Assembly: GCA_051294905.1 (NCBI GenBank)
Contig: CM119372.1
Span: 20,338,001-20,402,000, forward strand
Length of the DNA stretch: 64,000 bases
From: Botryllus schlosseri
Taxonomy: Eukaryota
Reading direction: 5' to 3'
The translations under genes and the position numbers were made by a program. The notes below the pieces were generated by a model, which was given only the letters and a program-made list of their open reading frames with translations, was not told where the DNA came from and ran no database searches. Below, piece by piece: positions 25,601-57,624 of the stretch; positions within the stretch are counted from its first letter, which is position 1, and the number at the start of each line of letters is the position of its first letter.

Positions 25601-26087
25601 GGTCATATTTAATAATTTGTAATATACACATTAACTAAGAATCAATCACGTGACTATTTACTATTCCTGATACTTCTTCAACACAGCGCGAGAGTTGACT
25701 ATACCCGAAAGTACGAATTACCACCACGGCACCGGTTGAGTGATCCCTATACCGAATAGTGTTACCGGTCGAGAGATGGCTATGCTAGCACCGGTTGAGT
25801 GATCCCTATACCGAAAATGGTCACCGGTTCAAGACGAGTTTCGAGGCACCGGTTGAGTGATCCCTATACCGAAAAGGGTTACCGGTTCAAGACGAGTTTC
25901 GAGGCACCGGTCGAGTGATCCCTATACCGAAAAGGGTTACCGGTCGAGAGATGCCTATACCAACCCAGGCACCGGTCGGGTGGAAGGGGGGTCTGAAAGG
26001 GTCACCGGTTCAGGACGAGTTTCGCGGCACCGGTCGGGTGCATCCATAAGAACCAATGGCCCGTCACGAGCGATCATACTAACTACT
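19652..26087 (+). repeat. Right inverted arm of copy B (6436 bp)
   Basis: Begins GTCATCTATGCCCAC (reverse complement of 18661-18675) and ends ACTAACTACT followed by the TSD. Confidence 0.95.
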
Positions 26088-30465: not shown

Positions 30466-30793
30466 ATGGAGGTATCGGACCCATCCATTCTCCTCCAGAA
30501 CGGCGCTCCTGATATCTCGCAAGGTGCGGACGACTCACTGATATCACCATATGCTTCACCGCAAAGAGACCAGTTTGCTTCTGAAATGAATTTCGCGTCT
30601 GGAGACTATGCGTTGGATACAGAGAACAATCATTTCCTTGCGAATCAAGTTTACTCCTCCGTAGTCGATAGGAAAACCACTCAAGCCATAGAAGACTTGC
30701 AAGAGACGTTGGGTAACATAGACCCAATGGCGGGAGGGGAAGGAATGACCGTCGACTGTAAGGAGGAAAAGACACTCGTTCAAAGTGATGATG
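30466..30793 (+). CDS. Tau-like gene exon 1 (acidic N-terminus [10 protein letters not shown]...VQSDD)
   Basis: ATG preceded by an in-frame TGA (30457); acidic ORF; donor G|GTATGG, phase 1. Confidence 0.75.
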
Positions 30794-36700: not shown

Positions 36701-39700
36701 TCGTAATGACTAATGAGTGATATTAGAATAGTCAACTAGACGCCTAATACAGCAATACTCGTTTTGGAATCGAACCACTCAGGCCTTCGATTTTGCCCAG
36801 GCCGTATCGCGGGACATTTCCACGAGAGAAAATCGACAGGCAGCTGAACGCTTCGCCCTGAGCTGTCGTCAAATAGTAAAATGCGACACTCCAAGCTTAC
36901 CGACCCCGCGTATGACAGCTTGCGATCGATCCCGCGACCTTACCGTGACTCCGCGCGAGTACATAAACAGTGTGTTATTGACGCGAGATTCAAGTTCGCA
37001 TTTCCAGGCCGGCCTCGCAAGCAACGTTACGCAGCCCGTAGCTTATCTGTGCCGTGCTTCGGTGATTGTTGATTGACATGCGTTTACGAAGTAGCGCGAT
37101 TTTGTTCTGGTATTAATCTGGGGGATTACGGAAGACTTTCGGAGATAAGTCGATTATATTCGCAGCGAGAGGGCGGACGTATGAGGCACGGCTCAATTAC
37201 GGCCTGGTCGCATTAATGTGTGCTATTGCGATTGTGTGTGTGGGATTAATTTACGGAATGGTTCCTCGCGTTTCTTGCGTCGGCCTCAAGTTCGGCGTAC
37301 GTCGGCGGGTTATTAAAATTTTAAACGGCATCTAACAAAGCTCCGGTAATTTGTTACAGTGAGCGATGCTTGTGCGTTTGTTATTGTTTGGGAATTGGGT
37401 AAGCGGGGAACTGTTGATTTGGTTGCGAGATTTATCGTTCTGCCTGACGCGAATTCATCGCGCTGATTCTGTCCCTGAAAAACAAAATTCGCCGGTCCTA
37501 CTGTATTGGGGAAGTTGTTTGGATAGATGACTTGTGTTGTATGGAAAGGTAGCGTCTGACCGTCCTGTCTGTGATTGCCTCCGACGAAAAGACCCGTGGA
37601 AAAGCGTGCGTCTTGTTATTATAAAGTTGCTTGATACGGATCTGATCATGTAAAGACCGCGGTTTCATCCTTGTGCTAATGTATTTACTCGCGATAAGTA
37701 CGCTTTCATATCGGCTATCTGTTGTAAGTAACATGTATTATTGTGACAACCGCTAAAGTGAAGTACGCGGGTGTATTGGGTGATTTTAATAGCGCTGCCT
37801 GCTGCTGTCTTGGTAACTTGGCGTCAGTTACTGCGCGCTCCTACCGCTTTAAAGAGCATATGTTTGATGAATGCGACTAGCGCGAGGACAGACACTAATC
37901 TTATTTATTGGCACATGATGTATTTGGATAATAACCTTATGTAACTGCTGTTCGTAGTTCCTGCAGGATTTGACGTTGATGAGATAAATTTGGGCGCGTT
38001 TGTCAGGTTCCTAAATTCCCTTCGTATTGCTTTTAGAACCTAATGGTACGCATCATAGCACGGATCAAGACTCTGCAATCAAGGTATTGATTCATTTACT
38101 GACCATACGCGTGGGATTACCTTTGGCTTAGCAATGTATTGAGGACATTTTGAGATTTATATTTAATGAAATTCATGATCCCCGCGTTCCGATTGTAATT
38201 ATGATTATTGTGCGTTTTAGCAATCAATCAAAAGCACTGCCGCGTCGCGCAAAGCGCTGAATTCTGCCAAACCTTCGTACGCTAGCCGATTACCTACGTC
38301 TCAATCGAGAATCACGCGTCCTAATTCCGCGAAGACTACCCCGACACAAAGAGAGCCGCCTGCCTCGCCTACCAGAGCCGCACGATTGCGCTGTACCCCG
38401 ACTACAATCAGGCTGTCTGCCACTGTAAGTCGTTGTTCCTGTTAGGGAATAAACACTCCTCTCCGTGTTATATATGATGTAGTTATTGCTCATTTGTGTC
38501 GCCTATACAATGTTTACTAAACAACTCTTCTTTTCGTGGTTTGTGGATATACGCAACACTGGTGCTTTATGATGCTTGCGTTTGGTGTGCTTGTGAATAG
38601 TTTGAGCTGGTCTGTGCTGGAATGCGTAGCCTGATCAAACTGAGTGTAGTTATTTTTGCACGATATTGCCGTATATTTCATATAGGAGCGTTGCTCTTTT
38701 GCTTGTGTACAAGATTTGACCATTATCTTAGGTAAATGAGTTTCAGATCAAAGTTTTGGAACTTGAGCGAATTACATTAGACTGCGTGTTTTAATTTACA
38801 TCCACATCAGGCGCAGACTTCACAGATTTCATGTTCCAAAAGCTAAATACTATAATATTTGCGGCAAATGATAGGAAAGCAAAAATACATTTGGCAATGA
38901 AGTTGAAACGCCAGCTACCACAGCGGTAAAGCCTTTGCTATGGATTGCTCTTGAGTTTAGTTGAAAGATTGATTGTATTCTCATTATCTGAACACGCAAA
39001 TATCATTATGTCACGCCGCTTAGATTTAGCTGTTTCATTACAAATTCATAATAATCATCCTTGAGCCGATTTACTGGCAATTGTGTCAGTGATATTACAA
39101 GGACTTCACCTTCCCACCAATTTTCAAGAATACGCCAACTGGGGAAACGCGACCGTCTTCACCTCCCGCAGTCTCTCAAATCAAGTCCAGATATTCTACG
39201 GCGTCGCCCGCTCACGCCAGCTCTAACAGCACGCCTTCCAGAGTACGTAACACGAGTCGAGCTTCAGCGATTACCACTGACTCCGTGCTCTGCTTTGCAA
39301 TTTTAGGCTGCGCAGACTACACCATTGCGCTCGCCGTGGTCAGCGCCGGTTCGTCGACCTCTCTCTTCTCCAAGGAGGCCGCCCAGTGTTCAGGTCGGTG
39401 GAGACAAAATACCAATGATTTGAGGGCAGAGTACTTATGATTTTTCTGAGTAGCCAAAAATGTTTTGCCTACTTGTGCTGCTTGCTCGAATGGTTATGAT
39501 CTTCTTACTATCTAGTCAGTTTTAGGTAAAACTAGTTACTTTTTACTTTCGATTAAGTCAAGTAGCTAAACTATGCTTCATAACTAGGGCGGTTTTTTTG
39601 ACATGTCAAAATTTATCAAAATTTCAACAAAATTGTAGAGTTAGGTCAAAATTTGTCAAAATTATTGAAAGTCAAAATTTTTTTTGACCTCTGCATTTCG

Positions 39701-42700
39701 TTGGCATTTCGTTTGCATTGTAGATTTTGCACTGTCGAGAACTTATCATTTGATATTTTACAGTTTTTAGCCTACTTTATGGGCCTACCGTTGTAAACGG
39801 CTAATTGTCTGCTCATTGCGAATCACAAACGGTCAAATAAAACAAATAGGTAGACATGGTGTTATGGTCAACGTACCGCAATAGCCTATCTGAAGAAAAA
39901 ACAGTGTGTTACCAGCAGTGTGCACGCAACTTGAGTGTTGTCAGCCAACAACTTGCTGTCCTTGGCAAGCTTCTTAGTAAGGACATTCAATTTCTAACCA
40001 AGAATGTAGGAAAGTATCTCTCATTGTACTGCAAGAAAATTTAATTATTTCTACCATGTATCGTAACCACTGGAATTCTTCATAGGGCCAGATTTCGTTA
40101 AAATATTGTTTTTTCATGTAAAAAGTTGCCTGTTTCTAAGCCAGAAACATTTTTTTCAGGCCAAACTACTTCGTTAGGACAGCCAGTCCCAACCAGAAAT
40201 GATTATAAGTGGTACAATTTTAACATTATCTTGGAAAACACCTAATTTGCATATATAGGGTCAAAATTAATAGTTTTTAGGTCAAAATTTACCTTTCTTT
40301 AGGTAAAAAAACAACAACGCCCTCCTATTCATAACTGTTAATGTAGAAGTGGAAATAGTTGAATCCCAACTGAGAGTAATCCGAAAAACTATTTCGTCGC
40401 AGTTGTGAGTTGTACGTTTGCATTTTTCTTCCTAACATGTATCGAATCGGTTTGCAGTCGAGCGACAGCGGCGGGCAATGCAAGATGCCCGACATGCGAC
40501 ACGTGCGAAGCAAAATCGGCTCGCTGCAAAACGCAAAGCATACGCCGGGAGGTGGGAAGGTAAACTCAAGTTACGCGGTGTAATTGATCAACAAATAAAT
40601 GCCGTCGTTGCTGTGGCAGTTTTAGTGTGCCAGTGCCTGACACCATGCATGCTGTGATTTCCAACGGCAGATCTGCATCTCATTTACTCTATTGTAGTTC
40701 GAGTCTGCGATTATTATTAGAGTGTATAACCCGTATTTACGACGAAAACACGAGTTCCAATACACTACGGGTGTTGAAAAATGACTTTTTTTCTCAAATT
40801 GTACTGGCTACTTTATAAAATTGTTAGGTTAACCTCATTTAAGCCTACACACCAAATTTGGTTCAATTCCAATCAGTAGCGCCGCATTGCTACAGGAGAA
40901 AAAAGTTTCGATTTATTATGTAAAAATTGATAAAAAAAATTCACAATTTTCCGTTCACCCTATCAAAGTGTTAGGTTGTCTATAGAAACGATGCTCAGCA
41001 AATTTGACCCTATTCCAACCAGTGGAAGCGGAGATATTGCCTTCGAAAAATTTGGATTCGAATAATCGAATTCACCATCGTAAATACTATTTTATTCCAA
41101 TCCAAATTTCTCGACGGCAATAACTCCGCTTCCACTGGTTGAAATTAAGTCGAATTTGGCAGACGTCGTTTCTATAGACGGCCTAACACTTTGATGAGGC
41201 GAACAGAAAATTTTGAAATAATAATTTTTATATAATAAATAGAAACTTTCTTCTCCTGTAACAATGCGGCTACTGGTTGGAATTGAACCAAATTTGGTAT
41301 GTAGGCTTAAATTAGGTACCGGTAACCTAACAATTTTGTCTAGTAGCCAGTACAATTTAAGAAAAAATAGTCATTTTTGAACACCCCTACTATATATTCT
41401 TGAAATATTTCATTAATATAATTATAGTCTACCGTAAACCGGGGTAACTTTGGACTTAAGGGTAACTTTGGACACTAAGCAGTAAAAGATTCAAATGGTT
41501 ATTGATGGAAAAAGGTTGCCGCTGGATGTCCAAATCTTTTTCATGAGGCAAGAGTACCACAAGTAGTCTTGCTAAAAGATGGATTCATTTCACTACCAGT
41601 TAAACTTGACCCAACATTGATAAATTAATGGCGGGGGTTAATTTCATCAAAATTGATGGCCATAAAACTTCTTACAACCAAACATAGATAGCATGTGATT
41701 CAGAGATTCAAAACTTGGCAGCAGATACCTCTAAATAGTCCATGGCAAAAATCTCAGTGGGCTTAGCCTTAGATCAATACAAAAAACTGTGATGTCCAAA
41801 GTTTCCCCGTCAAATTTTATCAGAATGGGGTAACTTTGGACAGTGGAAAATGTGATATTTAGAGCTCTGGAAAGTGGCTGCTTCGTCTATGTCAAAGTGT
41901 ATTGTCAACTATATTCCTTATGACCGGCCTGAAGGCTTTTTAAAATGGAATGAGAAAGTCAACAAATTAAGAGTTTGCCAAAATATGAAAAATGGGTAGA
42001 ATGAGAGATTGTAATGAGCTGACCTGATGAGCTGAGAGATTGTAATCGGGTGCAAGGTACTTCAAAAACTTATCACATACTCCTAAAGATGTGCCTGCTG
42101 AATATGGAATACCATAAATTATGACAAATACATCCATCAGAGGACATAAGAAAGGGAAAGTGTATCTTTTAAAGAACAGAAACATATTTGAAATCGGCAA
42201 TAAATCACGGTAACATGCTTAACGTTTCCTGTCGATTGCTGACACGGCCAGTGGGATACCCCTCATCACCATATGTTATTTATAAGTCCCAATTGGTGAA
42301 GGCATGAGGGAAAATCGAGATAAGGGATAAATAAGGGGGCATTACCCTTTATAAACTACCTATTTTTTTTGGGGGGGGGGTGGTTGGATTAGGCAAAAAT
42401 CATGCAATAGACCAGACATGAACTATTTTCTTTCAGTTTTAGCCACTGCTCTCAACTCTAACCAAATAAGCCTCATTTACCAGGTTTCATAAACAATAGA
42501 GTGTAAAGGCATACAAAAAACTAAATTGTCCAAAGTTACCCCACAACCAGGGGCAACTTTGGACACGGATAAATTACAAACATAAGGTACTTATTTATGA
42601 CCATGAAGATTTTGGATTAGGTAATTCTAATCTTTGCTCCATGACCCATGAAAAACAAAACTTTCCTCCCCTACACACTAGTATTTCCAAGATACAAAGC

Positions 42701-45700
42701 GGAATTGTTGAAAATTGTGTAAAGTTACCCCGGTTTACGGTACTGCAATATGCCTGTCTAACATTTTTACGTGTGTTCCATAATTTGATTCTCGTGTGTC
42801 TTCTTTGTTGTGACTACCGTATAGTTACTGGTACAGCTGACCTCGCTTAGCGTTTATATTGGTTTTCATTTTAATCTCTGTATTATATATGCTTCTTATT
42901 GTGCTATTCACTCTTGATAAGGGTCACTCGAAAAGTCTGTGAGTTGACTAAATTATACTGCGATGAATGTAGTCCTGGAAGCAATATTCGATGCCCATTG
43001 CTGCCGTGAGAAATGTGGTAAACGAGGTCAACGTATAACAAAAATTAATTCAGCAATCCAAATTCTGATTGTGGCATATAATCACTAATCACAGTGATTC
43101 TGTTATTTTACCCGCCCATTAAACACAATGTACAATGCGATACAATGAACAGGGGGAGGATGTCGAAACGACCAAGTACGGTCTCTGGCATCCTCCTCAG
43201 CTTAATGCCGGTGCCACTGTCACACCATCAACAGTGGTGAAACGCTAACTCGCCATCAGATAGTAGCGGTCGGGAAGGTGATAGCTTGGGCAAGTTTTTG
43301 TTGCACTAAAAACCTGAGAAAGTTGCATTTATTTTTTTTAATTTTAACAAAAGTTGCAGAAGTTGCATTTATACAATTTTTTGAAATCATGAGCGTATGA
43401 GATACTCGAAAGGTTCCAGCACTTTGAAATTTGCATGGTGTCTGCTTGTTCCATTTCTTCCTTCGCTATTCAATCGATCATGGTTACATTTTTATTTACT
43501 TAGGGTTCGCACAATTTACCAGTTAGTTCAGGGAATTTCATGGCTAACGGAATAGTGGGTATGCCGCATGCCCAGTATACCTGCGTCCGGCGCCTATGGT
43601 GGGCTGCATTGTCACTTGAAATCCATTAATTCAGTCTTTATTATAGTTTTATAGCATGTTTTGCGCAATACTTGATAAAAGTTGCAGAAAAAAGTTGCAT
43701 GAAAAATATCGACAAAAGTTGCAAAAAGTTGCAATATAAAACTCCTCCAAACAGATTAAAACACCATACTACATACATTATGAGTATTTACGAAGCTTCC
43801 AGAAGCTGTAAAAAAAAATTGCAAAAGTTGCAAAAACTTGCCCTGGTGATAACGAGGGCAAGATTTTGTTGCAGTCAAATCCGTGGAAAGTTGCAGTAAA
43901 AAGTTGCATTTATGTTTTGCAAAAGTTGCACTAAAAAGTTGCATTTATGGACGATTCCTTGAAATTATTAGGGTATAAGATACTAGAATCGATCCGTATC
44001 CAAGGCACTGTAACAGAACTCAGTGTCACACTGGCGACAATGGCCCGAAAAATAGGCTCGGTGAAAACATAATTTTCGGCGGTCTAACCTGAACGCACGT
44101 CAAATTAGAAAGGACCCCAAATTTAAACGACAGTGAAATGATCAATCAATTTATCTACATACAGTGCCAAATATTTCCAGTAAAAAGTTGATTGGATGAA
44201 AAATCGAAAAAACTTGCAAAAAGTTGCATTAAAAATCCAAAAAAGTTGCAAAAAGTTTGATGAAAAATCGAAAAAGTTGCATGAAAAAAATGGAGAAAAG
44301 TTGCAATATAAGATTCCTCCAAACCGATTGAAACGCCATACTACATAACTTCTGAGTATTTAGGAAGCTGCCGGAAGCTGTAAAAAAAGTTGCGAAAACT
44401 TGCCCTAGTGATAACCAAACGAAAGGTCATCACTCAAACAATTGGGCCGTGATGTCGAGGTTTGGCCAAAGGGGGGTCGACATTATGCTAGTCACCCCTT
44501 AAGAACCGAGGGCTGAACAGTGACATGACCTTTTTTGTTTCTTTTTTTAATCATCATCACTGAAGGAGTTTATTCTGAAATTGACGTCGGTCGGACTCGA
44601 ACCGGTGCAACATACCACTGCTCAACTCGAAGTGCTATAGGTTGCCGCGAACTATTACCGACCACTTCCGGTCAATACCCATTTTCTCCATGTAGTTGAT
44701 TAAAATAATCGTTTGCGGTTCATTTTCAGGTTAAAATCGAAAGTAAAAAAGTGGACTACAGCCGGGTAACGTCGAAAGTGGGATCGAAAGCAAATCTCCA
44801 ACACACCCCTTCCGGCGGAAAGGTAACAGTTGCCATCCCAACAGCAACTCCCTAATATTTTCAGATCCAAATCACGTTCTGGATTTGAGATTCAAATCCA
44901 AATCCATAATTACTTTGGTATCCTATCCATATCCAAGTCCGTATCAGATAATGACTGAAATTTGACCAGAAAGTTGCATGGAAATTGAAAGATATGCCAG
45001 TTACTTGGCGTCTAGGTCCAAATATAAGTCAAGCTTCAAATTAATCTTTAAAAGAGTCAATGTGCTCAAATTACAGTTGAATCTGTTAGAAAGTCTTTGG
45101 CAGCAGCCATTTTCCTCAGAAAGCCACCATATTCAAACTGTAGCTAGTGATTAATTTGTCTCATCGATATCAGAGACGTAGATTTAGACTGCAGTGTCCC
45201 TTTAAATCCATGTCTATGCTCATCTCCGCTGTCTTGTCAACGTCCAGGTGAAGATCGAAAGCAAAAAACTTGACTACAGCACGATAGGTTCCCGGTGCGG
45301 CTCGCTGGCAAACGCCACGCATTCGCCTGGCGGAGGAAAGGTAGGCGGCAGACAGGTGAACGTCAACGGCTTGTCGTTGAATTTCTGAAATTGGTTTGTG
45401 CGTTTGGGCAGGTGAGGATTGAAAGCCGGAAGCTCGACTTCAGTCACGTCGGGTCAAAGTGCGGGTCCTTGTCCAATGCAAGCCACTCGCCGGGTGGCGG
45501 CAAGGTATGGAGAAAACGATACCACTGTTTTTCAATGCACTTCGTTTCAATGATCTATGCGTTGGTACGCTTTGTTTTAATCTAAGGCCGCCGAAATTGT
45601 CAAAATTGCTACTCAAGATGAAGTAGTCCTGCAAATTTCCATTCAGTAACAAGAAGTTGCGATTCCCAAGATATGCAATAAGTAAAAAGTGATGGGTCTC

Positions 45701-48700
45701 AAAATTACACAAGGAGACCGTTTCAAAAAGTAGATTTGCCTGAGGCATTGCGAATGCGGAGCAGTCTAGCGAAGGTTGTAAACTGCATATTTATAATACA
45801 AATGGGTGTACCTTACGAAAAATATTGGTTGAATTCCTAGTCTCGGAGGCGACGTTCGAGATTTTTTAGGTGGAAAGCATTTCTTTTTGGCAGCAGAATT
45901 TTGCCCGGATATGCTGCAACGTTATCCTATTCTAATCTGTTCATGTTATTTTTTTTCGAAGGTTAGAGTCGAGAGCAAGAGATTGGATTTCAGCAATGTC
46001 CCTTCCAAATGCGGATCTCGAGATAACATGAAGCACACGCCGCAAGGAGGAAAGGTAATCGAGTCAATTTACTTGGTTGCTTTGCACTGGTCGGTGACAC
46101 GCAATCTCGAAATTTGCGGGGCGGGATATGAAATTGGTGCTTTTGGCTACGTAGCTACGTCTTTTTCAAAATTCGTATTAGTCAACGCGATGCAATGATT
46201 GAAATCTGTGGACTGTTAAAATGTGTATCTGTACATACTGTACGGCGTACATACATGTAAATACTGTAGGAATGTTTTTTACAATGCCGGTTGGCTCAAT
46301 GGAGGAAGAGCTTCTTTCTGGCATTTACTCATTAACTACTGCTGCCGACCACAGGTGTAGATGTAACTAGAGCCGATTTTGCACCTTTGTATTCTGCCCG
46401 GGTGCTGTAGTAAATGATCTCAGCATTAATTTCTCCTGCACCGGATATTCGGGGGGAAACCGGGACTGTTTCTAATTATAAAAGATTGAGATTTCGTAGG
46501 ACAGTCACACAGCATCAACTCCCAGTCGATATATCATATTTGCCCAGTATAATTCTGTTGTGCTTTTGGTTCTGGTCTGTTTTGCATAATAACTTGACAG
46601 AGCATAAAGAGACATCATTGTAATGTCTGTGTTTTTCTAAAAAATGTCCATGTTCAAGGGTGGTGGTAGGCTATTCAATTAGTTAACTCGCGTTGACTTG
46701 TTTTGTGAGGTTTTCTCCAGAATACTCGATTGATCCCAATGCAACTGGTATTTATAGGTAAGATTTGTTAGTCGTCAGCATTTGGATTTGAGGAATGTCA
46801 AGTCAAAAGTTGGGAGTCTAGACAACTTGCCGTACACCCCTCCGGTTAAGAAGGTATTTCTGTACGATGGTAGCCTGTTGCGCTTGGCTCCATAAGCTAA
46901 TTGGCTGCTGCTACAGGAACTACTCATTACGCTGACCAATTAAAAAAACGAAAGTAACTTTACACATATGCATTGCCTATTTCAAATGAAAGTTGAAATA
47001 TGTTAGAACTTGTAGTGGGGCATAGCAGACTTGATGATTAGCTTGTGATGTGATTTCTTTGTGTCAAAAGATCTTGACTTGTCACCTATGAAGATCATGT
47101 ACCTAATGTACTCAGCGGCTTTGATGAATGCAACCTCATTGACACAGTCTGCTCGCAACAATAACTGAAATAACATGTGTTACTACACTAATAGGCATTG
47201 CCAGTATCATTCATGTTTAGTATGAAAATTTATTTGTTTGTCACCCTCGATAACTTGATTGAAAATTTGTTGTTCCTCCCATCATTATTACAATTCAAAC
47301 AAGCACGCTCAACTATTTAAATTCTCATCAGTATGTTTGTAGGCTACTATGTGTTAATTCTAAAAAAATTGGTTTGATTCCGAGCTTAGCAAAGCCAACC
47401 ATTTTCAGTACGAACTTTTGGAATACATCGAAGTTCATCAAAATATCCAAGTATTCTCAACCAGGGTACTTACTCAACTCAACGCCTAATGGTAGCACTG
47501 CGCCGTTTCCATGCTCTTTCAGAAATCAAATAGCATTTTTAGAGCATCCCAATCAGCTTCATTAGCCAGTTGCAAACCTTGTGGAATTCCAGACTTCTTC
47601 AGAAGCATTTTAGGCACGTTTTCTGCTGTTATCTTGTTCTAAATCAGGGGCCTCAAACAACCTTCGTGCGGTGTGCGCCCGCATCGAAATTCTGCATTTT
47701 CAAGTATTTGACAATTTTGAAGAGTGACATATCTATTTTGAAAACTTGAAATCACTCTAAATTGCTTTATAAACGTTAAACTACTCATCAAACTGTATCA
47801 GTATGACATCACCTTCAAATGCTACGAAGCTGTGTAACATCTGCTATGACGTCATATTGCCTATTCATGATGATGAACCATGACTCGCAGAAGACATTTA
47901 GTAATCCTATTATTGATGCTGCGGCCCACTGCGTCATTGAAAACTAGGAAATTGACCCATAAGCACATTTGAGTTTGAGACCCCTGTTCTAGATATTTCT
48001 AGCAGTGGTAATCAGCATAAAACCTACTCCTTGCTGTAACATGGCATCATCATCCATCCACTTTTATAGCGCATTGAAGCAATACTACATGTGAAGCCGT
48101 TCAGATCCTTCCAAGTGTTCTTCCATTTTTACTAAACTACTCCACTCTTTGTATTATTCTCAACTGTGTCGCTTGCATGCACCCACTCTTTATTGAGATT
48201 GATAACAGCAACATCGCCGAACCTTGTAACATGATAATCTTCCGTCACGTTGATTTTGACGGAAACAGACCCCAAATTTCTAGTGTCAATGAAGTTTTGG
48301 CATCTTGCTAAAGCATGCTTGGTAGGCTAAAGGTGTGCCGGGATATTTCTGCGGACGAAATATTTCTCATACTTTCTCTTGTGGATCCCGACCAGGTGAA
48401 GATTTTCCACGAGAAACCGAATTTTCAGAATGTCACTGGGAAAATCGGGAGTTTGGATAACGTCAGCTATTCACCTGGCGGTGGAAAGGTTTGCGTTCAG
48501 ACTGGTAGAGATTGCGCTGTCTTACTGCGGATATCGTAAATAAGTCTGTGCTCTGCTGTTACCATGTTTTCTCTGCTCCTTCAATATCATGTGCTTTGTG
48601 AGCTACTCGTTTTTGAGAAACTGTACTAAGTGTGCCTTTATCATACGACCGACACTATCATTATCATCATGACAGCTGGAATAAAAACTTGCTGTAGTAT

Positions 48701-51700
48701 TGGAACTGTAAACGCAGTTTCTGTATAGATGTCAATGTTCTATCAGTTTGATCTTCTGACATTGATGTTTAATTTTGTGGTTGCCTTCCAGGTGAGAATA
48801 TTTCACTCCAAAGTCGACACCAGCAAGGTGCAGTCGAAAATCGGCAGCAAGGAAAATATCACTCACACCCCCGGAGGCGGTAAAGTAAGTCAGCGATTGT
48901 GAAATACGTGTGATTTCAATTAATAGGTGCTGCCTTTCCTCCATCTTTGGTGTGGAGTAGGCCTGCACACCGTTTTTGAAACTATTAGAGTTTGTAGCTT
49001 GACAGGACCAGGGTTGTTATAACACTATATGGCTGTTTTCATGGCCGAAGTGAACATATTTTTGGATGGATGACCATTAGGGTTGTCCACAATTTGAAAA
49101 ATCTTACGAATCCTCCGTTGTAATGTCTTATTCTATAGATTATTGATAAAAAACGACACTGAGCCTGAAAGAAGCTCACAGGAAGGCCGTTAAGATTTCG
49201 TGCAAAGCGTTTGAAAGTAGCTGCCGAAGAATGGGCATGCCACCGACCATAGAACGGCGAGAACACTAGCAATCACGAAACCACGGCTCTTGATTGGCTA
49301 ATCCGCTATGCTTCAATGACCACGACAGCAGCAGCTTGCTGCGTAGGTGATCAAGGAGTCTGCTACCGGCGGCGATTCTGAAAGCGCATTTTATGTCGGT
49401 TGACAGATAATGATTTAGGATTGATTCAGGGTATGTTGAGGTACGAAATACATGATGAACAAACAACAGCTGCTTCACAAAACGTCCAAACTCTAAAGCA
49501 TGATCGCTTTATTGCGAAGGAAACCGCCGTAGCCTATATGCCTTGTTTTCAACGAGGGAAAGCATAGAAGCTTATGCAAATACCGACGGATTCCTAGTTT
49601 CGGAAAGGCTATATCATTATTGAATACAAAGATAAAGCTTAACAATGACACTATAGTTTGTGTGATCTTATTGGGCTCAGGTTGTAGTGCATATTATTGA
49701 AGTTTTGAATGCTCTAGGGATCGGCTGAATCAAACGGTTAGGCTTGGGACTCATTAGATGTTCACAGCAAATTGAATTCACTTGCAAGTGTTTTCAAAGT
49801 CCCTAATGATGCCGCAGAAACGAGGTTTAAATGCAAGCACAGACTATGCTTGATATGATTTACAAACTATGCTGCATGCTATGCACTATGCAGCATTGCC
49901 TGTGCCTACCTTTACACCCCTTTTCTGCGCGATTATTAGGGACTTTGACATATCCTGTTCAGCATAGTATGTGCTTAATTTTACACCTCTTTTCTGCGTC
50001 ATCATCAAGGACTTTGACAACACTTGCAAGTGAATACATTTTGATGCAAGCATCTGACAAGTGTCAAGCATAACCCGCTGATTCAGCCGATTCTTAGAGC
50101 TTTCAAAACTTCAACTATGTACTACAACCTGAGACCAATAAGATAACACAAATTATAGTGTCATTGTTAAGCTTTATATTTGTATTCAATAATGATATAT
50201 TCTTTCTGAAACTAGGAATCCGTCGCTACTTGCATAAGAGCCTATGCTTTCACTCGTTGAAAACAAGGCATATAGGCTACGGCGGCTCCCTTCACAATGA
50301 AGCGATCATGCTTTAGACGTTTTTGTGAAGCAGCTGTTGTCTGTTCATCATGTATTTCGTACCTCAACATACCCTGAATTAATCCTAAACCATTATCTGT
50401 CAACCTACATACAATGCGCTTTCAGAATCGCCGCCGGTAGCAGACTCCTTGATCACCTACGCAGCAAGCTGCTGCTGTTGTGGTCATTGAAGCATAGCCG
50501 ATTAGCCAATCAAGAGCCGTGGTTTCGTGATTGCCAGTCTTCTTGCCGTTCTATGGTAGGTGGCACGCCTATTCTTCGGTAGCTACTTTCAAACGCTTTG
50601 CACGAAATCTTAACGGCCTTCCTGTGAGCTTCTTTCAGGCTCAGTGTCGTTTTTTATCAATAATCTATAGAATAAGACATTACAACGGAGGATTCGTAAG
50701 ATTTTCCAAATTATGGACAACCCTAATGACCATGGCCACGCAGAACAGTATATTACGGTCAAACTATAATTGGCCAATTATGTGCATGGTTATAACTTAT
50801 AGCGCCTTCACATGACATGTTGTCATCCCCGGTTCCAGGTGAAAATCCTGACGAAAAGCATCGACTTGTCTCACGTCAAATCGAAATGCGGATCACTTGA
50901 CAATGCCAATCACACGGCAGGTAACTATCCTTCACTCCAGAATACGATAACACGATCTATATACGCCCGTGTGATTTTAGGCGGGGGGAATGTGGAGATA
51001 TTCAACGAAGCGCCATTGTTCAAGGACCATGCGAAAGCCAAGGTTTGTGGCCGGCTTGCTAATTCTTATCTCCATGGGCGGATACGAAGTGAAAACTCGT
51101 TACTTCTGCCGATTGGCGCCCCGCAAAAATTCATTGAAACTACCAGAGGGGTGCCATTGTAGTTGCTGATGTTACTCTGTGAAGGTAACTTTAACCTTGC
51201 CTACGTCCAAGTAGAAGTAAAACAAAGGCGCAAGAATAGTGGTACAACCACCAAGAGTGATGACAAGGTCGTTTCCATCTGTAGATGCAAGGCTTTCCCA
51301 TTTGCAGTATTGACTAAAAATACGTCACACAATCTCTGCATAACTGCATATACATACCATAAGTGAAGGATGTGCATATGCTGCTGGACAAGTCAGGTGC
51401 AGATATAGCCTTGTAAGGCTTTCTAAGTCACCACCCCTAGTCCCCTACCTGCTATCCTGGAAATGGGAAACGTCAAGCGGGGGCTTGAGAAGCCCCAGAT
51501 ACCAGTTTTACTAATTGTTTCTTTAGTCTGACCCGACCTGCGATCGAACCCACGACCTACCGACTGTTACGCCATCTCGTCAGAATCTACCCGAGGGCTC
51601 CCTAACCGATGCCAATACATTTTCTTTCGCGCACAACAGATTGGCTCGCTGGACAACGCCAACCACGTTCCCGGCGGTGGAGACGTGCGGATTTACGACG

Positions 51701-51772
51701 AAAAGTTACATTTCAGGGAATCGGCGGCCCCTAGAACAGACGACGGCCTAAACGGTCTTGGAAGCGAAGGAT
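30466..51772 (+). CDS. tau: Tau/MAP2/MAP4-family microtubule-associated protein, ~19 coding exons, >=714 codons, ten microtubule-binding repeats; final C-terminal exon uncertain
   Basis: GT-AG exons join in consistent phases into one ORF: acidic N-terminus, basic Pro/Ser/Thr-rich region, ten KXGS...PGGG-type repeats and a tau R'-like tail ([16 protein letters not shown]; cf. tau [16 protein letters not shown]). Family-level assignment; one-to-one orthology to a vertebrate paralogue is not claimed. Confidence 0.93.
31502..31575 (+). CDS. Tau-like gene exon 2 ([25 protein letters not shown])
   Basis: AAACAG| acceptor, CAG|GTAATT donor, phase 1 to 0, acidic. Confidence 0.8.
31922..32050 (+). 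CDS. Tau-like gene exon 3 ([15 protein letters not shown]...EQTSND)
   Basis: CTTTTCAG| acceptor, GAC|GTACGT donor, phase 0 to 0. Confidence 0.8.
32025..32104. repeat. Perfect 40-bp tandem duplication spanning the exon 3 donor
   Basis: CTGCTAGTGAACAAACTTCTAACGACGTACGTAATTGAGA twice. Confidence 0.97.
33177..33303 (+). CDS. Tau-like gene candidate exon 4a ([42 protein letters not shown])
   Basis: TTTTTCAG| acceptor, C|GTAAGC donor, phase 0 to 1; the only open frame. Confidence 0.6.
33549..33588 (+). CDS. Tau-like gene candidate exon 4b ([13 protein letters not shown])
   Basis: ACACAG| acceptor, strong CAG|GTAAGC donor, phase 0 to 1, compatible with exon 3 and exon 5. Confidence 0.5.
38037..38083 (+). 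CDS. Tau-like gene exon 5 ([16 protein letters not shown])
   Basis: TTTTAG| acceptor, AAG|GTATTG donor, phase 1 to 0. Confidence 0.65.
38221..38424 (+). CDS. Tau-like gene exon 6, basic Ser/Thr/Pro-rich ([11 protein letters not shown]...TIRLSAT)
   Basis: TTTTAG| acceptor, ACT|GTAAGT donor, 204 nt, open. Confidence 0.88.
39129..39242 (+). CDS. Tau-like gene exon 7, Pro/Ser-rich ([13 protein letters not shown]...NSTPSR)
   Basis: TTTTCAAG| acceptor, AGA|GTACGT donor, 114 nt, phase 0. Confidence 0.75.
39307..39393 (+). CDS. Tau-like gene exon 8, Pro-rich ([29 protein letters not shown])
   Basis: TTTTAG| acceptor, CAG|GTCGGT donor, 87 nt, phase 0. Confidence 0.82.
39585..40327. mobile_element. 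hAT-type MITE in intron
   Basis: TAGGGCG start and CGCCCTCCTA end; 8-bp TSD TTCATAAC (39577-39584, 40328-40335); GTCAAAA subterminal repeats. Confidence 0.8.
40458..40559 (+). CDS. Microtubule-binding repeat R1 exon ([34 protein letters not shown])
   Basis: Matches tau R1 [25 protein letters not shown]; TGCAG| and AAG|GTAAAC. Confidence 0.95.
40768..41387. mobile_element. Tc1/mariner-type palindromic MITE
   Basis: TA flanks; arms (C/G)GGGTGTT(G/C)AAAAATGAC...; inverted similarity runs ~300 bp to the centre. Confidence 0.8.
41432..42740. mobile_element. Tc1/mariner (pogo-like) non-autonomous element
   Basis: Perfect 20-bp TIR CCGTAAACCGGGGTAACTTT, TA on both sides, internal GGGGTAACTTTGGAC repeats. 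Confidence 0.9.
43286..43845. mobile_element. hAT MITE, first of a tandem pair
   Basis: Ends TTGGGCAAGTTTTTG / CAAAAACTTGCCCTG; flanked by GTGATAGC and GTGATAAC; AAAAGTTGCA subterminal repeats. Confidence 0.8.
43854..44407. mobile_element. hAT MITE, second of a tandem pair
   Basis: Ends GAGGGCAAGATTTTG / AAAACTTGCCCTA; GTGATAAC on both sides (43846-43853, 44408-44415). Confidence 0.8.
44730..44822 (+). CDS. Repeat R2 exon, 93 nt ([31 protein letters not shown])
   Basis: TTTTCAG| and AAG|GTAACA, phase 0-0. Confidence 0.95.
45248..45340 (+). CDS. Repeat R3 exon, 93 nt ([31 protein letters not shown])
   Basis: CCAG| and AAG|GTAGGC, phase 0-0. Confidence 0.95.
45412..45504 (+). CDS. Repeat R4 exon, 93 nt ([31 protein letters not shown])
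   Basis: GCAG| and AAG|GTATGG, phase 0-0. Confidence 0.95.
45962..46054 (+). CDS. Repeat R5 exon, 93 nt ([31 protein letters not shown])
   Basis: Poly-T CGAAG| and AAG|GTAATC, phase 0-0. Confidence 0.95.
46758..46853 (+). CDS. Repeat R6 exon, 96 nt, divergent ([32 protein letters not shown])
   Basis: TTTATAG| and AAG|GTATTT, phase 0-0; KVGS retained, PGGG lost. Confidence 0.88.
47645..47986. mobile_element. hAT-Charlie MITE
   Basis: TIRs CAGGGGCCTCAAAC / GTTTGAGACCCCTG; TSD TTCTAAAT / TTCTAGAT. Confidence 0.85.
48396..48488 (+). CDS. Repeat R7 exon, 93 nt ([31 protein letters not shown])
   Basis: CCAG| and AAG|GTTTGC, phase 0-0. Confidence 0.95.
48792..48884 (+). CDS. Repeat R8 exon, 93 nt ([31 protein letters not shown])
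   Basis: TTCCAG| and AAA|GTAAGT, phase 0-0. Confidence 0.95.
49078..50725. mobile_element. Foldback DNA element with ~650-bp TIRs (hAT-like termini)
   Basis: TAGGGTTGTCCA / TGGACAACCCTA ends; perfect 8-bp TSD ATGACCAT (49070-49077, 50726-50733); 49078-~49735 mirrors ~50070-50725. Confidence 0.92.
50839..50920 (+). CDS. Repeat R9 exon, 82 nt ([28 protein letters not shown]), equivalent to human MAPT exon 11
   Basis: TTCCAG| and CAG|GTAACT, phase 0 to 1, splitting the Gly codon as in MAPT exon 11 (82 nt). Confidence 0.95.
50981..51042 (+). CDS. End of R9 and first half of R10 ([21 protein letters not shown])
   Basis: TTTTAG| and AAG|GTTTGT, phase 1 to 0. Confidence 0.92.
51300..51565 (-). 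mobile_element. tRNA-derived SINE fragment
   Basis: Minus strand reads GGTCGTGGGTTCGATCGCAGGTCGGGTCAGACTAAAGA, a B-box-like GGTTCGA followed by a SINE-type body; boundaries approximate. Confidence 0.55.
51640..51772 (+). CDS. Second half of R10 plus R'-like tail ([44 protein letters not shown])
   Basis: ACAACAG| acceptor; matches tau [36 protein letters not shown]. Likely donor T|GTAAGA at 51773; otherwise it reads through to TAA at 51859-51861. Confidence 0.92.
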
Positions 51773-53610
51773 GTAAGAACAATGGTGTAGTTTATACCCT
51801 AAGGATAAATAGTTTAGATACGGGTGCTTGTGCTTTCAGACACTCCCAACATAATTTTTAAGTGTTATGGAAAAGGCAGTTAACCGTGAATGTTCCATGT
51901 GATGTTCTTGGTAGTTACTTTATTGGAGTTGATACGTTGCCCAGAAACGGATTTGGAGTCGATAGTAAAGTGTGCTATGTACAATAACTGGCTGGTGGCT
52001 AAGCCTTTTGCTGAGATTTTTAGAAACAGACCTTTTTCACTATTCAAAGCTTCGGAACATGCCTTGTCGATGTAGATTCGTGAAGAAAACGTGGAGCTGA
52101 ACTCGTGACTCACCCGATTCCAGAGTCTCCGTCATGGTGCATGCGCTCAAAATATGGTATTACCTGTCGCGTATTTTAAATGTTGAAGTTATTTTTACAG
52201 TTGATTGTATTATGGTACTGCCGACTTCGTTTTTATTTGTGAATCATTTACCGACGTCTGATAGATATTTTGAGTTGAAATTCAATTGCCGAATGACAGG
52301 TTACATGTATCATTTAGAGATGTAGCACATAGTATGTCAAGGGAAGTCGTTCATGGCATCGTTGAAAGAGTTTTATGTACATGAGTGTACTTTCGCACAG
52401 TGGCGAACAATTTGTGTAAGTATTTGTCATCTTATCTTTATTTTATTTTCTATTTGTTGATTGTTTCCGTCTGAACTGTAATGAAATTTGAAGAAATTCG
52501 AGACACTTCAACACTCCACACAGCCAACACGTTTTATGACAATTTGTCTTCACCGAAAACCGCTACTGTAGTTTTGTATATTGTGTGATATTTTTTTATC
52601 TGTTTGAGTGCATACGGAGTGATGTATGTTATTGTTTGTTGTTGATACTGCACGTCGATAAGACTTTTATTGCGATAACGCAGCTGGTACACAGATGCAA
52701 CGTTCTGACAATCATTGACTCACAGCATTGCAATTGCAATCTGGCAATTGTGCACTTCATATTTCAACGTCAACTTGTGAAACACAGCGCACACAATCTT
52801 GAGTAGCACGCCCTTTTGAAAGAATACTGTTATTGTACGTTTACACTTGATGTCAATATTATATGACTGCTTAGTTTTTGTTCCCTGTAGGAGCTTGGCG
52901 TTCCGTAGCTATGCTTAGTGTTGAAACAATGTCCGTTGAGCGTTGATATTGCGTGTTTCAGTGTGGGTTACATTTATGGTTTTAATAAAACAGTTCAATG
53001 TACGTACATGTGTCGACTGCGGTGCGACGACTAGTACCGTAATTTTCCGAATATAGTGCGCCCCCATGTATGTTACGCACCCTTGAAATGACGTGTATAT
53101 TCTGGGAAAAAGCCTGTACCCATGTATAGTACGCATCCTGCATTCGCAGTACATGAGTACATGAATAGTTGCGGTTTAGTATTCGATGTTGTTCTGTTTT
53201 GCGATGTCACTGTCGAACAATCATGACATAATGATCGCTTATCATAATACAATTAACGGCATTGTCTCTAAACGAGAGTAGATAGTAACCAAAGCCTGTG
53301 AGGTCGGCGACGCGATAGCTCAGTCTAGCGACACACGACATACTGCGCACGTGGCCTATTAGGCCATTATATTTGCGATTGCTCAGACTAACGGTTATGT
53401 CGGGCGCACCAGTCCTGTTGGAGATGCAAATGATTACGCAAGCGATTCTATCTTGCGCACATGGCCTCTTGTGTATGCGATTGTTGAGGCCTGGCGTTTA
53501 CGCGATGAATCAACAAGGATTGCCGCGCACGCTTGTAGCAATCAGCGACCTAATTACGCTCGCGTACAAACGGCAAACCAACTCAGCAAGAGATCGCGTG
53601 CTTTGCAGAC

Positions 53611-56681: not shown

Positions 56682-57624
56682 ATGGATATTTTGGACATCG
56701 TAGATGGCAGTTCGGACAACGAGAATACAATTGTTATGCCCAGGCATTACTTGGCAGACATATCGGACTCATTTGTAAAATACCCAGAAAATGAATTCGA
56801 TGACCGCTACAGATTTTACAAGGGAGCTACGGTAATTCTATTGGACATGATTAAAGACAGCCCATGGTTGGATGTCCGGTGCCAAGCTTTGCACCCCATG
56901 ATGCAATTACTCTGTGCTCTCCGATTTTTTGCTACGTCATTTTCAACAAACAGATGCTGATTTGATTGGTGTGTAAGCCGGACAACTGCATGCCGAATAA
57001 TCCACTGCATTTCTCGGGCATTATCAGAGAATAGAGAAAATTTATCCCACGATTGGATGATTCGTTACCAACAAAGAGTGATTTCTTTGACATACTGGAG
57101 TTCCAAATGTCATCGGTTGCATTGATGGTACCCATATCCCAATAAAGTCCCCAGGTGGCTCTGTACCAGAAAATTTATCGTTGCAGGAAGGGATATTTTT
57201 CTTCGAACTGTCAAATGGACTGCCATGCCAAGAGAATACCGGTAGTGACTAATGCTGTTGTGCTGGGAGACAGAGGCTCTATGCTCTAAAAATGTACCTG
57301 ATGACTCCATTAACAAATCCACAGCTTGCACAAGAAAAAAAATACAGCTATATGTACTCAAAGACATGCATGCTGATCGAGCAATGCTTTAGCGTTCTGA
57401 AACAGCGTTTCCAGATGTTGCTAAATCCTATGCGAATGCAAATCGAAAACACAGTCCTGGCAATCATTGCAACCATATGTTTGCACAATTTTGCTACAAA
57501 AACCAATGAGCCAGTTCCTGATATTGCAGTTACTCCCGAGGAAGCTACGGATATAACATCTGAAGTTGGATACACTGACGCAATAGCCTATCTTGAAAAT
57601 AAGATCAACACATATTTCTACTAA
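56682..57624 (+). pseudogene. Harbinger (HARBI1-like) DDE transposase pseudogene, frameshifted and internally deleted
   Basis: Motifs EFDDRYRF, QLLCALRFFAT, PNVIGCIDGTHIPIKSP, LGDRG, YLMTP, IEQCFSVLKQRF and CLHNF spread over several frames. Confidence 0.92.

What the first reader, a model, noticed from the sequence alone, without database searches (positions are those of the whole stretch)
40458..51772. Tau-family protein with ten microtubule-binding repeats built by serial duplication of an exon-10-like cassette
Seen: ten repeats, each with a (K/R)XGS motif. R2-R8 lie on seven separate phase-0/phase-0 exons (six of 93 nt, one of 96 nt) between an R1 exon ending PGGGK and an 82-nt exon ending in phase 1. 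Established: human MAPT exon 10 is a 93-nt symmetric cassette (3R vs 4R) followed by the 82-nt exon 11; vertebrate tau/MAP2 have 3-4 repeats, and MAP4 and C. elegans PTL-1 up to 5. Inference: the exon-10 slot has expanded sevenfold, allowing in principle 3R-10R isoforms (up to 128 in-frame combinations). The copies are diverged but all open, suggesting an old expansion under selection.
Basis: partly seen in the sequence, partly recalled or inferred. Interest (0 to 1): 0.82.

Follow-up and report, generated by a model that had tools for sequence, protein, structure and literature searches.

The report
Tunicate tau-family gene, ten repeats
This is a real, expressed microtubule-binding gene of the tau/MAP2/MAP4 family with ten repeats in the genome and nine in its main messenger RNA, but similar many-repeat versions are already known in other invertebrates, so it is a good example and not a new kind of thing.

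Summary
On the + strand there are ten tau-type repeats. Each piece passes Pfam PF00418 on its own. R2-R8 lie on seven separate phase-0 exons (six of 93 nt, one of 96 nt) with AG/GT borders, and an 82-nt phase-1 exon follows. Spliced contigs from two studies join R1-R2-R3-R4-R5-R7-R8-R9-R10, so the main mRNA has nine repeats. R6, the divergent 96-nt exon, is skipped; five raw reads from a third study also show this. The gene runs from about 30466 to 52075 and is the only PF00418 locus found in the 495-Mb genome. The genome looks like a tunicate: the best relative is Clavelina (46% identity) and it carries a cellulose-synthase/GH6 pair. Ten repeats is not unusual outside vertebrates. A 10-repeat oyster protein is published (PMC8985376). 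Public proteins from Clavelina (12), a sea urchin (13), Lingula (13) and Nucella (10) match or exceed it. The idea of 128 splice combinations has no support here. Verdict: new member of a known kind, of modest interest.

The parts
30466..30795 (+). Candidate first coding exon (acidic N-terminus, starts at an ATG). The 3' border is not determined.
   Evidence: Open frame seen. It has pI 4.05 and 19% D+E. Residues 18-37 match the N-terminus of P0002 (residues 25-44, pairwise E 9e-5), and it matches Clavelina X1 residues 12-67 (E 0.003). It lies outside the stretch laid with reads, so its splicing is inferred.
33177..33303 (+). Conserved non-repeat exon ([19 protein letters not shown]...)
   Evidence: X3 contig 8 covers 33177-33303 and joins onward. 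Of the 5 proteins tried by tblastn, only Clavelina P0001 and P0002 match here.
38037..39393 (+). Four exons of the basic P/S/T-rich region: 38037-38083, 38221-38424, 39129-39242, 39307-39393
   Evidence: GT..AG joints appear in contigs of both X1 and X3. Borders were checked. The pre-repeat part of the model has pI 11.4 and 41.5% P+S+T.
40458..40559 (+). R1 exon (102 nt, ends PGGGK)
   Evidence: 43.9 bits. Joints 39393|40458 and 40559|44730 are seen in X1 and X3.
44730..44822 (+). R2 cassette exon (93 nt, phase 0/0)
   Evidence: 61.2 bits. Joints to R1 and R3 are seen in X1 and X3.
45248..45340 (+). R3 cassette exon (93 nt)
   Evidence: (57.3 bits) and joints. It is sister to R4 in the repeat tree (SH-aLRT 93).
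45412..45504 (+). R4 cassette exon (93 nt), only 71 nt downstream of R3
   Evidence: (60.3 bits) and joints. R3 and R4 share 23 of 31 residues.
45962..46054 (+). R5 cassette exon (93 nt)
   Evidence: 61.1 bits. It is joined directly to R7 in X1, in X3 and in 5 raw reads of X24.
46758..46853 (+). R6 exon (96 nt), divergent (ends TPPVKK, with no PGGG) and skipped in the transcripts seen
   Evidence: 33.9 bits, the weakest cassette. It has the longest branch in the tree (0.84). The R5>R7 joint passes over it. X3 depth is 0 in its bin. One X1 contig at depth 10.8 covers 46780, and whether that contig is spliced is unknown.
48396..48488 (+). R7 cassette exon (93 nt, 'VKIFHEK' type)
   Evidence: 45.6 bits. 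Joints R5>R7 and R7>R8.
48792..48884 (+). R8 cassette exon (93 nt, 'VRIFHSK' type)
   Evidence: (59.6 bits) and joints. It shares 24 of 31 residues with repeat 8 of P0002.
50839..50920 (+). R9 exon (82 nt, ends in phase 1)
   Evidence: 49.1 bits. The joint 48884|50839 is in X1, X3 and 3 raw reads of X24. The joint 50920|50981 is also seen.
50981..51042 (+). First half of R10 (62 nt)
   Evidence: Joints are seen in X1 and X3, with 1 and 2 raw reads of X24.
51640..51772 (+). Second half of R10 plus the post-repeat segment (133 nt, donor GTAAGA, ends in phase 1)
   Evidence: (27.5 bits). The joint 51772>52050 is in X1, and a near-equivalent joint is in X3.
52050..52075 (+). Last coding exon (…SSEHALSM, stop TAG at 52073-52075). 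The 3' UTR runs on to at least 52337.
   Evidence: X1 contig 6 covers 52050-52337.

Best explanation
This is the single-copy tau/MAP2/MAP4-family gene of what is most likely a tunicate. The protein has an acidic N-terminus, a basic proline/serine/threonine-rich region, and a C-terminal array of tubulin-binding repeats. The genome encodes ten repeats. Seven of them (R2-R8) sit on their own 93/96-nt phase-0 exons in the position that exon 10 occupies in vertebrate MAPT. The main mRNA carries nine repeats, because the divergent R6 exon is skipped. By analogy with tau and MAP4, the repeats should lie stretched along the outer ridge of a protofilament and anchor at tubulin interfaces. A nine-repeat array would then tie together roughly twice as many tubulin subunits as 4R tau and bind more stably. 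KXGS phosphorylation at up to ten sites would release it. The array grew by tandem exon duplication. The first, last and penultimate repeats are shared with other tunicates, while the number of middle cassettes differs between lineages. Shown here: gene structure, family membership, expression and splicing of nine repeats, single copy, and many-repeat relatives. Inferred: microtubule binding, the effect of repeat number, and regulation through KXGS.
For: Each of the 10 pieces passes PF00418 on its own. All exon borders are canonical and the frame is continuous. GT..AG joints link every exon from 38037 to 52050 except R6, in contigs of X1 and X3 (two studies), with 5, 3, 1 and 2 raw reads in X24 for four of the joints. 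All 9 PF00418 matches found in the 495.5-Mb assembly lie in this window, so a processed retrocopy elsewhere does not explain the spliced contigs. The architecture fits the family: pI 4.05 at the N-terminus and pI 11.4 with 41.5% P+S+T before the repeats. The best relatives are Clavelina lepadiformis isoforms (45.9% identity over 566 columns, E 2.6e-146) and an unnamed 11-repeat protein (44.3%). A Cellulose_synt match lies 3.3 kb upstream of a GH6 match on the same strand of contig C9. That fusion is, from recall, the hallmark of tunicates. In the repeat tree the first repeats group together (SH-aLRT 96), the last repeats group together (94), R9 pairs with Clavelina R11 (83), and R3 and R4 are sisters (93). 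The mechanism rests on passages of PMC6279373 and on the profile's match to tau on microtubules, 6cvn_D.
Against: No binding assay exists for this protein. X1 and X3 are only guessed to be RNA runs, and their RNA nature is inferred from the intron-less GT..AG joints. The raw RNA-seq is thin. X23 shows none of the listed joints. X24 shows 4 of the 10 listed joints of the repeat region (R1>R2 to R10a>R10b). Only about 6% and 13% of those two runs were read. Fifteen further joints were not displayed, so minor isoforms, including ones that hold R6, cannot be excluded. The repeat tree has 31 columns and only 1 of its 44 inner branches reaches 95, so the history of the middle cassettes is weakly resolved. 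The tunicate assignment rests on protein similarity and one marker gene pair. It does not rest on a named record.
Confidence: 0.85

Rival explanations
1. One reading: the seven cassettes form a combinatorial splicing hub that gives 3R to 10R isoforms, up to 128 combinations.
For: All seven cassettes are symmetric (phase 0/0), so any subset stays in frame. R6 is in fact skipped. Annotated isoforms of relatives differ by whole repeats. Clavelina isoforms lack repeat 2, 9, 10 or 9+10. Lingula isoforms hold 4 to 13 repeats. These are database models that I could not check against reads.
Against: Contigs of two studies each give one path, R1-R5 then R7-R10. X3 contig 8 (1648 nt) runs unbroken from the upstream exons through R1-R5 into R7. 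No joint that skips any cassette other than R6 is among the 15 listed. Breaks between contigs sit where unspliced pre-mRNA pieces (X3 contigs 9 and 10) or variant sites branch off, which explains them without alternative splicing.
Confidence: 0.1
2. R6 is a decaying pseudo-exon that is never used, and the gene is a fixed nine-repeat gene.
For: The R5>R7 joint is seen in X1, in X3 and in 5 raw reads of X24. No R5>R6 or R6>R7 joint is listed. R6 has lost PGGG, has the lowest Pfam score of the cassettes (33.9 bits) and the longest branch (0.84). Its acceptor region is the poorest in pyrimidines, 9 of the last 20 intron bases against 10-13 for the others, read.
Against: The frame is still open over 32 codons with intact AG/GT and an intact KVGSLDN core, and it still passes the Pfam cut-off. 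By my own arithmetic, about a fifth of random 96-nt stretches would be open, so openness alone is weak evidence. One X1 contig at depth 10.8 covers the exon, about twice the depth of nearby intron pieces (5.1-5.7). Fifteen joints were not shown.
Confidence: 0.4
3. R6 is a regulated alternative cassette, included only in some cell types or stages, in the way exon 10 of MAPT is.
For: The evidence is the same as that listed against the pseudo-exon reading. It has precedents in MAPT exon 10 and in the 3R/4R/5R forms of MAP4 (PMC6279373 passages), and in the single-repeat differences between annotated Clavelina isoforms.
Against: No junction into or out of R6 was seen in any of the four runs laid.
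Confidence: 0.45
4. The repeat exons are an assembly artefact, with tandem copies created or miscounted by the assembler.
For: The window does hold a suspicious, perfectly complementary 6.3-kb inverted duplication further upstream.
Against: The ten repeats are only 29-74% identical to each other (9-23 of 31 residues) and their flanking introns do not align. Independent contigs from two studies carry nine of them in the same order.
Confidence: 0.02

Closest known systems
Clavelina lepadiformis LOC143466172 (XP_076820920 to XP_076820926; UniRef name 'Microtubule-associated protein')
   Same: It is the best match, with 42-46% identity over the whole model, including the non-repeat exon 33177-33303 and the P/S/T-rich region. 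It has 10-12 PF00418-type repeats, and its first, penultimate and last repeats correspond to those here.
   Different: It has up to 12 repeats: seven 'KCGS' middle repeats against four here, plus two 'VKIF' repeats. Its annotated isoforms drop repeats 2, 9 or 10. Its exon map was not available to me.
Human MAPT (tau), exons 9-12
   Same: The order is the same: an R1 exon ending PGGGK, a 93-nt symmetric cassette, then an 82-nt phase-1 exon. The repeat profile matches tau R2 best (6cvn_D, 52.5-55 bits per copy). The 93-nt size of exon 10 follows from the 186 versus 93 bp minigene products in PMC13164133. The 82-nt size of exon 11 is recalled.
   Different: There are seven cassettes where MAPT has one. 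The last repeat is split by an extra intron (62 + 133 nt), and there is no exon border after its GGG. I saw no VQIINK or VQIVYK hexapeptide by eye in the repeats printed. The C-terminal tail is unrelated (…SSEHALSM). The gene is single-copy and a co-orthologue of tau, MAP2 and MAP4.
Crassostrea gigas K1QDY2, the 10-repeat MAP in PMC8985376
   Same: It is an invertebrate member of the family with ten tubulin-binding repeats. It is already published, with the remark that molluscs hold 7-10.
   Different: It belongs to another phylum. That paper's table contains no Ciona, Strongylocentrotus, Branchiostoma or Lingula (0 occurrences each), and it gives neither exon structure nor splicing.
Antarctic fish MAPT with 7 repeats (PMC4815063), and the 7-repeat fish proteins P0006 and P0007
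   Same: It shows tandem multiplication of the second (exon-10-type) repeat inside a tau gene: 4 tandem copies according to the passage. Fish repeats R2-R5 cluster together in my tree.
   Different: It is a true vertebrate MAPT paralogue, with fewer copies and much more similar ones.
Lytechinus pictus MAP2-like (13 repeats), Lingula anatina tau (4-13 repeats across isoforms), Nucella lapillus protein (10 repeats)
   Same: They have long repeat arrays of the same family. The Lingula isoforms differ in steps of whole repeats.
   Different: They are 39-48% identical over the repeats only, with no match to the exon at 33177-33303. Their projection domains are much longer.

Membership tests
tau/MAP2/MAP4 family (Pfam PF00418, Tubulin-binding repeat) | Tandem 31-32-residue repeats that match PF00418 above its curated cut-off | tested here: met
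   10 of 10 pieces score 27.5-61.2 bits against the cut-off of 27, each scanned alone.
tau/MAP2/MAP4 family (Pfam PF00418, Tubulin-binding repeat) | A KXGS motif in the repeats (the motif name is recalled) | tested here: met
   10 of 10 repeats carry (K/R)xGS.
tau/MAP2/MAP4 family (Pfam PF00418, Tubulin-binding repeat) | A PGGG-type turn at the end of each repeat | tested here: met
   Exact PGGG in 6 of 10 repeats. R2 has PSGG, R5 has PQGG and R9 has AGGG. R6 has none (PPVK).
tau/MAP2/MAP4 family (Pfam PF00418, Tubulin-binding repeat) | A basic proline-rich region directly before the repeats, with the repeats near the C-terminus | tested here: met
   The 193-residue pre-repeat segment has pI 11.4 and 41.5% P+S+T. 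About 50 residues follow the GGG of the last repeat.
tau/MAP2/MAP4 family (Pfam PF00418, Tubulin-binding repeat) | An acidic N-terminal projection domain | tested here: inconclusive
   The candidate first exon has pI 4.05 and matches the relatives' N-termini weakly. Its splicing into the mRNA was not observed.
tau/MAP2/MAP4 family (Pfam PF00418, Tubulin-binding repeat) | Binds and stabilises microtubules | not testable with these tools
   This needs co-sedimentation or imaging assays.
MAPT (tau) in the strict sense, as opposed to MAP2 or MAP4 | One of three vertebrate paralogues, with the tau-type C-terminal tail | tested here: not met
   Only one PF00418 locus was found in the genome. The nearest relatives are non-vertebrate. 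The tail …SSEHALSM is unlike the …SASLAKQGL tail of the fish protein P0006.
MAPT-type exon architecture | A 93-nt phase-0/0 cassette for the second repeat, followed by an 82-nt exon ending in phase 1 | tested here: met
   Six cassettes of 93 nt and one of 96 nt, then an 82-nt exon. Human values: 93 nt follows indirectly, and 82 nt is recalled.
Tunicate genome (host assignment) | A cellulose synthase GT2 domain fused to a GH6 domain. The statement that this is unique to tunicates among animals is recalled. | tested here: met
   PF03552 matches at C9:15029126-15029521(-) and PF01341 at C9:15025585-15025875(-), on the same strand 3.3 kb apart. A second GH6 match lies at 15068570. Whether the two domains form one transcript was not checked.

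The most novel reading that the evidence does not exclude
The vertebrate MAPT layout (R1 exon, 93-nt symmetric cassette, 82-nt phase-1 exon) is older than the split into tau, MAP2 and MAP4, and survives in the single tunicate gene. There the cassette slot is an evolutionarily labile 'dial'. Copy number of two cassette types differs between tunicate lineages (about 4(+R6)+2 here, 7+2 in Clavelina, 3+5 in P0002). At least one cassette per species is skipped, so repeat number is tuned both over evolutionary time and between cell types.
Probability: 0.3. Interest if true: 0.5.

Novelty: new member of a known kind. Interest (0 to 1): 0.3.

Why it matters
Tunicates are the closest living relatives of vertebrates. 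Their single tau/MAP2/MAP4 gene shows what the ancestor of tau may have looked like. Here it keeps the exon sizes and phases around human exon 10, whose mis-splicing causes frontotemporal dementia, but with the cassette multiplied sevenfold. That gives a natural series for asking how repeat number sets microtubule affinity, spacing and competition with motors. It also offers a tractable chordate in which one gene can be manipulated without paralogue redundancy. The basic fact that invertebrate family members can carry ten or more repeats is already in print and in public annotation, so the finding extends known biology and does not overturn it.

Tried and rejected
1. Three word-index protein searches, with the P/S/T-rich ORF, the R9-R10a read-through and the N-terminal ORF, gave nothing useful. 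Searches gave 0 hits. One search gave 2 hits, both unnamed 7-repeat proteins of about 360 aa. So the species' own annotated protein, if one exists, was not found.

3. The look-up of sequencing runs listed no holder on record as RNA. The runs laid were two 'RNA?' contig sets and two raw RNA-seq runs chosen by species label.

4. X23 gave no joint of the gene at all.

5. ARAGORN found no tRNA between 40000 and 53000, although a T-arm-like stretch lies near 51530-51590.

6. Earlier findings of this scan: nothing by place and nothing by words.

7. Aligning the cassette exons with 80 nt of flanking intron showed no similarity outside the exons. A recent segmental duplication was therefore rejected.

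8. Literature searches for tunicate tau repeats listed no paper on the subject. PMC4815063 says only that the Ciona protein's architecture is 'distinct' (passage).

9. PMC9735940 held no statement of exon sizes.

10. I did not run structure prediction or complex prediction. The protein is expected to be disordered, and the family assignment is not in doubt.

Full report
**What is in the sequence.**
A motif scan of all six frames found nine (K/R/T)xGS…N matches in the tau-type context (…SK.GS…N..H.PGGGK) on the + strand between 40512 and 50884. A tenth repeat lies at 51640. Reading the flanks and locating the borders gives these exons:

| Exon | Coordinates | Length | Note |
|---|---|---|---|
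| R1 | 40458-40559 | 102 nt | ends PGGGK |
| R2 | 44730-44822 | 93 nt | |
| R3 | 45248-45340 | 93 nt | |
| R4 | 45412-45504 | 93 nt | |
| R5 | 45962-46054 | 93 nt | |
| R6 | 46758-46853 | 96 nt | |
| R7 | 48396-48488 | 93 nt | |
| R8 | 48792-48884 | 93 nt | |
| R9 | 50839-50920 | 82 nt | ends in phase 1 |
| R10a | 50981-51042 | 62 nt | |
| R10b | 51640-51772 | 133 nt | donor GTAAGA |

Every exon has an AG acceptor and a GT donor, and the joined exons stay in frame. Each of the ten pieces, scanned on its own, reaches the curated Pfam cut-off for PF00418 (27 bits), with scores from 27.5 to 61.2 bits. A permissive six-frame scan of the whole 64-kb window with a profile of these repeats found nothing else above 9 bits. 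There are therefore exactly ten repeats and no decayed extra copies. The only additions are that R10 is split over two exons and that 51772 is a splice donor, not the end of the gene.

**The gene is expressed, and the main mRNA has nine repeats.**
I laid two contig sets (X1 and X3, from different studies, labelled 'RNA?') and two raw RNA-seq runs (X23, X24) on 33000-52999.

- Contigs of both X1 and X3 carry GT..AG joints that link 38083|38221, 38424|39129, 39242|39307 and 39393|40458. They then link R1|R2, R2|R3, R3|R4, R4|R5, R5|R7, R7|R8, R8|R9, R9|R10a and R10a|R10b.
- X1 also joins 51772|52050.
- X3 contig 8 (1648 nt) runs unbroken from exons upstream of the laid stretch through 33177-33303, the four P/S/T-rich exons and R1-R5, and ends 29 nt into R7.
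- The R5|R7 joint passes over R6. It is seen in both contig sets and in 5 raw reads of X24.
- X24 also gives 3, 1 and 2 reads for R8|R9, R9|R10a and R10a|R10b, and none for the other six listed joints of the repeat region.
- X23 gives none at all. Only about 6% and 13% of these two runs were read.

The joints show that X1 and X3 contain spliced RNA. A processed DNA copy is unlikely, because all 9 PF00418 matches found in the 495.5-Mb assembly lie at this locus.

For R6, X3 has depth 0 in its bin. X1 has one contig at depth 10.8 over 46780. Nearby intron pieces have depth 5.1-5.7, so this contig may simply be unspliced RNA. Fifteen further joints were not displayed, so a minor form that contains R6 is not excluded.

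**Full gene model.**
With the observed joints, the open frame runs as follows:

- 33177-33303;
- a basic P/S/T-rich region on four exons (193 residues up to the repeats, pI 11.4, 41.5% P+S+T);
- the repeats;
- a short tail ending …SSEHALSM, with the stop at 52073-52075.

An acidic ORF that starts with ATG at 30466 (pI 4.05) matches the very N-termini of the two closest relatives (pairwise E 9e-5 and 0.003). It is probably the first coding exon, but its splicing was not observed. This is the classic tau/MAP2/MAP4 layout.

**Which organism.**
A profile of the repeats was searched against 1.84 billion representative proteins and gave 1405 hits at E ≤ 0.001. The top hit is a protein of the ascidian Clavelina lepadiformis.

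- The spliced model aligns to the Clavelina isoforms at 42-46% identity over its whole length, and to an unnamed 11-repeat protein (P0002) at 44%.
- Of the five proteins tried, only these two match the non-repeat exon at 33177-33303.
- The genome also carries a Cellulose_synt match 3.3 kb upstream of a GH6 match on the same strand. From recall, that fusion is found among animals only in tunicates.

I therefore take the window to come from a tunicate that is distant from Clavelina.

**How unusual ten repeats are.**
They are not very unusual.

- Among the 150 best hits listed, 5 have 10-13 matched stretches and 16 have 7-9.
- The five are from Clavelina (11; up to 12 in isoform X1), the unnamed P0002 (11), Lytechinus pictus (13), Nucella lapillus (10) and Lingula anatina (12; 13 in longer isoforms).
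- In print, PMC8985376 (abstract, section 12 and Table S3) reports 7-10 repeats in molluscs and a 10-repeat Crassostrea gigas protein.
- PMC4815063 (passage) reports a fish MAPT with 7 repeats, including four tandem copies of the second one.

I found no paper on tunicate repeat numbers. The Table S3 of the 2022 paper contains no Ciona.

**History of the array.**
The flanking introns of the cassettes do not align. The repeats share only 9-23 of 31 residues. The copies are therefore old.

In a tree of 47 repeats from this gene, Clavelina, P0002, a 7-repeat protein (P0008) and a fish, resolution is poor: 31 columns were used and only 1 of 44 inner branches reaches 95. A few groupings do stand out:

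- all first repeats group together (96);
- all last repeats group together (94);
- R9 pairs with Clavelina R11 (83);
- R8 groups with three P0002 repeats (87);
- R3 is sister to R4 (93). These two exons are only 71 nt apart, which points to a tandem duplication in this lineage.

By eye there are two cassette types: a 'VKIESKKLD…KCGS' type (R2-R5) and a 'VKIF…KIGS' type (R7, R8). Their numbers differ between the three tunicate proteins: about 4+2 here, 7+2 in Clavelina and 3+5 in P0002. This suggests repeated gain and loss within a shared framework.

The repeat profile matches the solved tau R2x4 construct on microtubules best. 6cvn_D scores 198 bits (52.5-55 bits per copy), against 131.5 bits for 6cvj_D. 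That fits the label 'exon-10-like'.

**Alternative splicing.**
The only event seen here is the skipping of R6. Every other cassette appears on the single path of both contig sets. The breaks between contigs coincide with unspliced pre-mRNA pieces (X3 contigs 9 and 10) or with variant sites (for example 44774 in X1), which explains them without alternative splicing. Contigs do drop rare variants, so minor forms remain possible.

Annotated isoforms of relatives do differ by whole repeats. Clavelina isoforms lack repeat 2, 9, 10 or 9+10, and Lingula isoforms hold 4 to 13 repeats. These are database models that I could not check.

R6 itself is the most divergent copy:

- it has no PGGG;
- it scores 33.9 bits, the lowest of the cassettes;
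- it has the longest branch in the tree;
- it has the weakest pyrimidine tract.

I cannot decide between a rarely used alternative exon and a dying exon.

**Mechanism.**
According to passages of PMC6279373, tau-family repeats lie extended along the outer ridge of a protofilament and anchor most strongly at the interface between tubulin dimers. The same paper states that isoforms with more repeats protect microtubules more strongly (4R versus 3R tau).

By inference, a nine-repeat array would span about twice as many tubulin subunits as 4R tau and should bind with higher avidity. All ten repeats keep the KXGS serine. From recall, phosphorylation of that serine releases tau from microtubules. None of this was tested for this protein.

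**Verdict.**
It is an expressed member of the tau/MAP2/MAP4 family, single-copy, in a probable tunicate. It has ten genomic repeats and nine in the main mRNA. It is a new member of a known kind, because arrays of ten or more repeats are already published for molluscs and present in public annotation for several phyla, including a tunicate.

The more interesting residue is evolutionary. The vertebrate exon-10/exon-11 layout is present in the unduplicated gene of a close relative of the vertebrates, with the cassette slot multiplied and evidently labile.

Noticed in passing
window 8951-15244 and 19799-26087: Three adjoining inverted-repeat pairs (3589, 682 and 2034 nt) are each 100% complementary. 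Together they form arms of about 6.3 kb, separated by about 4.5 kb. Perfect identity over this length suggests either a fold-back assembly artefact or a very recent inverted duplication upstream of the gene.
   Followed up: partly
window 49070-50733 (intron between R8 and R9): A palindromic element of about 1.66 kb. Its nested inverted arms of 413, 202, 163 and 62 nt are 96, 91, 80 and 79% complementary. It is probably a fold-back type mobile element.
   Followed up: partly
window 51397-51430 (intron between R10a and R10b): In raw run X24, about 38 reads have loose ends before 51397 and 36 behind 51430, and 39 of 47 reads lack one base at 51413. A short stretch here evidently resembles an abundant RNA encoded elsewhere. 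A T-arm-like sequence lies near 51530-51590, but ARAGORN calls no tRNA there.
   Followed up: partly
window 1849-2619(-), 13896-14596(+), 20447-21147(-); also 4296(+), 12180(-), 22858(+): Copies of repeated elements with near-identical long open frames. Two of the copies belong to the large inverted duplication.
   Followed up: no
window 57253-57624 (+): A 123-residue open frame (…LIEQCFSVLKQRFQMLLNP…ICLHNFA…) that looks by eye like a fragment of a Harbinger-type (DDE) transposase. This was not tested against any library.
   Followed up: no
own genome, contig C9: 15025585-15029521(-) and 15068570-15068854(-) (loci L010-L012): A cellulose-synthase-like match followed by a GH6 match, with a second GH6 match 43 kb away. 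The genome may hold two CesA-like genes.
   Followed up: partly
proteins P0009, P0014, P0016: Proteins of early-diverging fungi (Cetraspora, Syncephalastrum, Paraglomus) carry 7-9 PF00418-type repeats and rank among the top hits of the repeat profile. PMC4815063 already mentions a Rhizopus member.
   Followed up: no
window 35958-35975 and 42363: X23 and X24 show piles of reads whose loose ends are homopolymer runs (poly-C, poly-G/T). These are most likely low-complexity artefacts and not transcripts.
   Followed up: no
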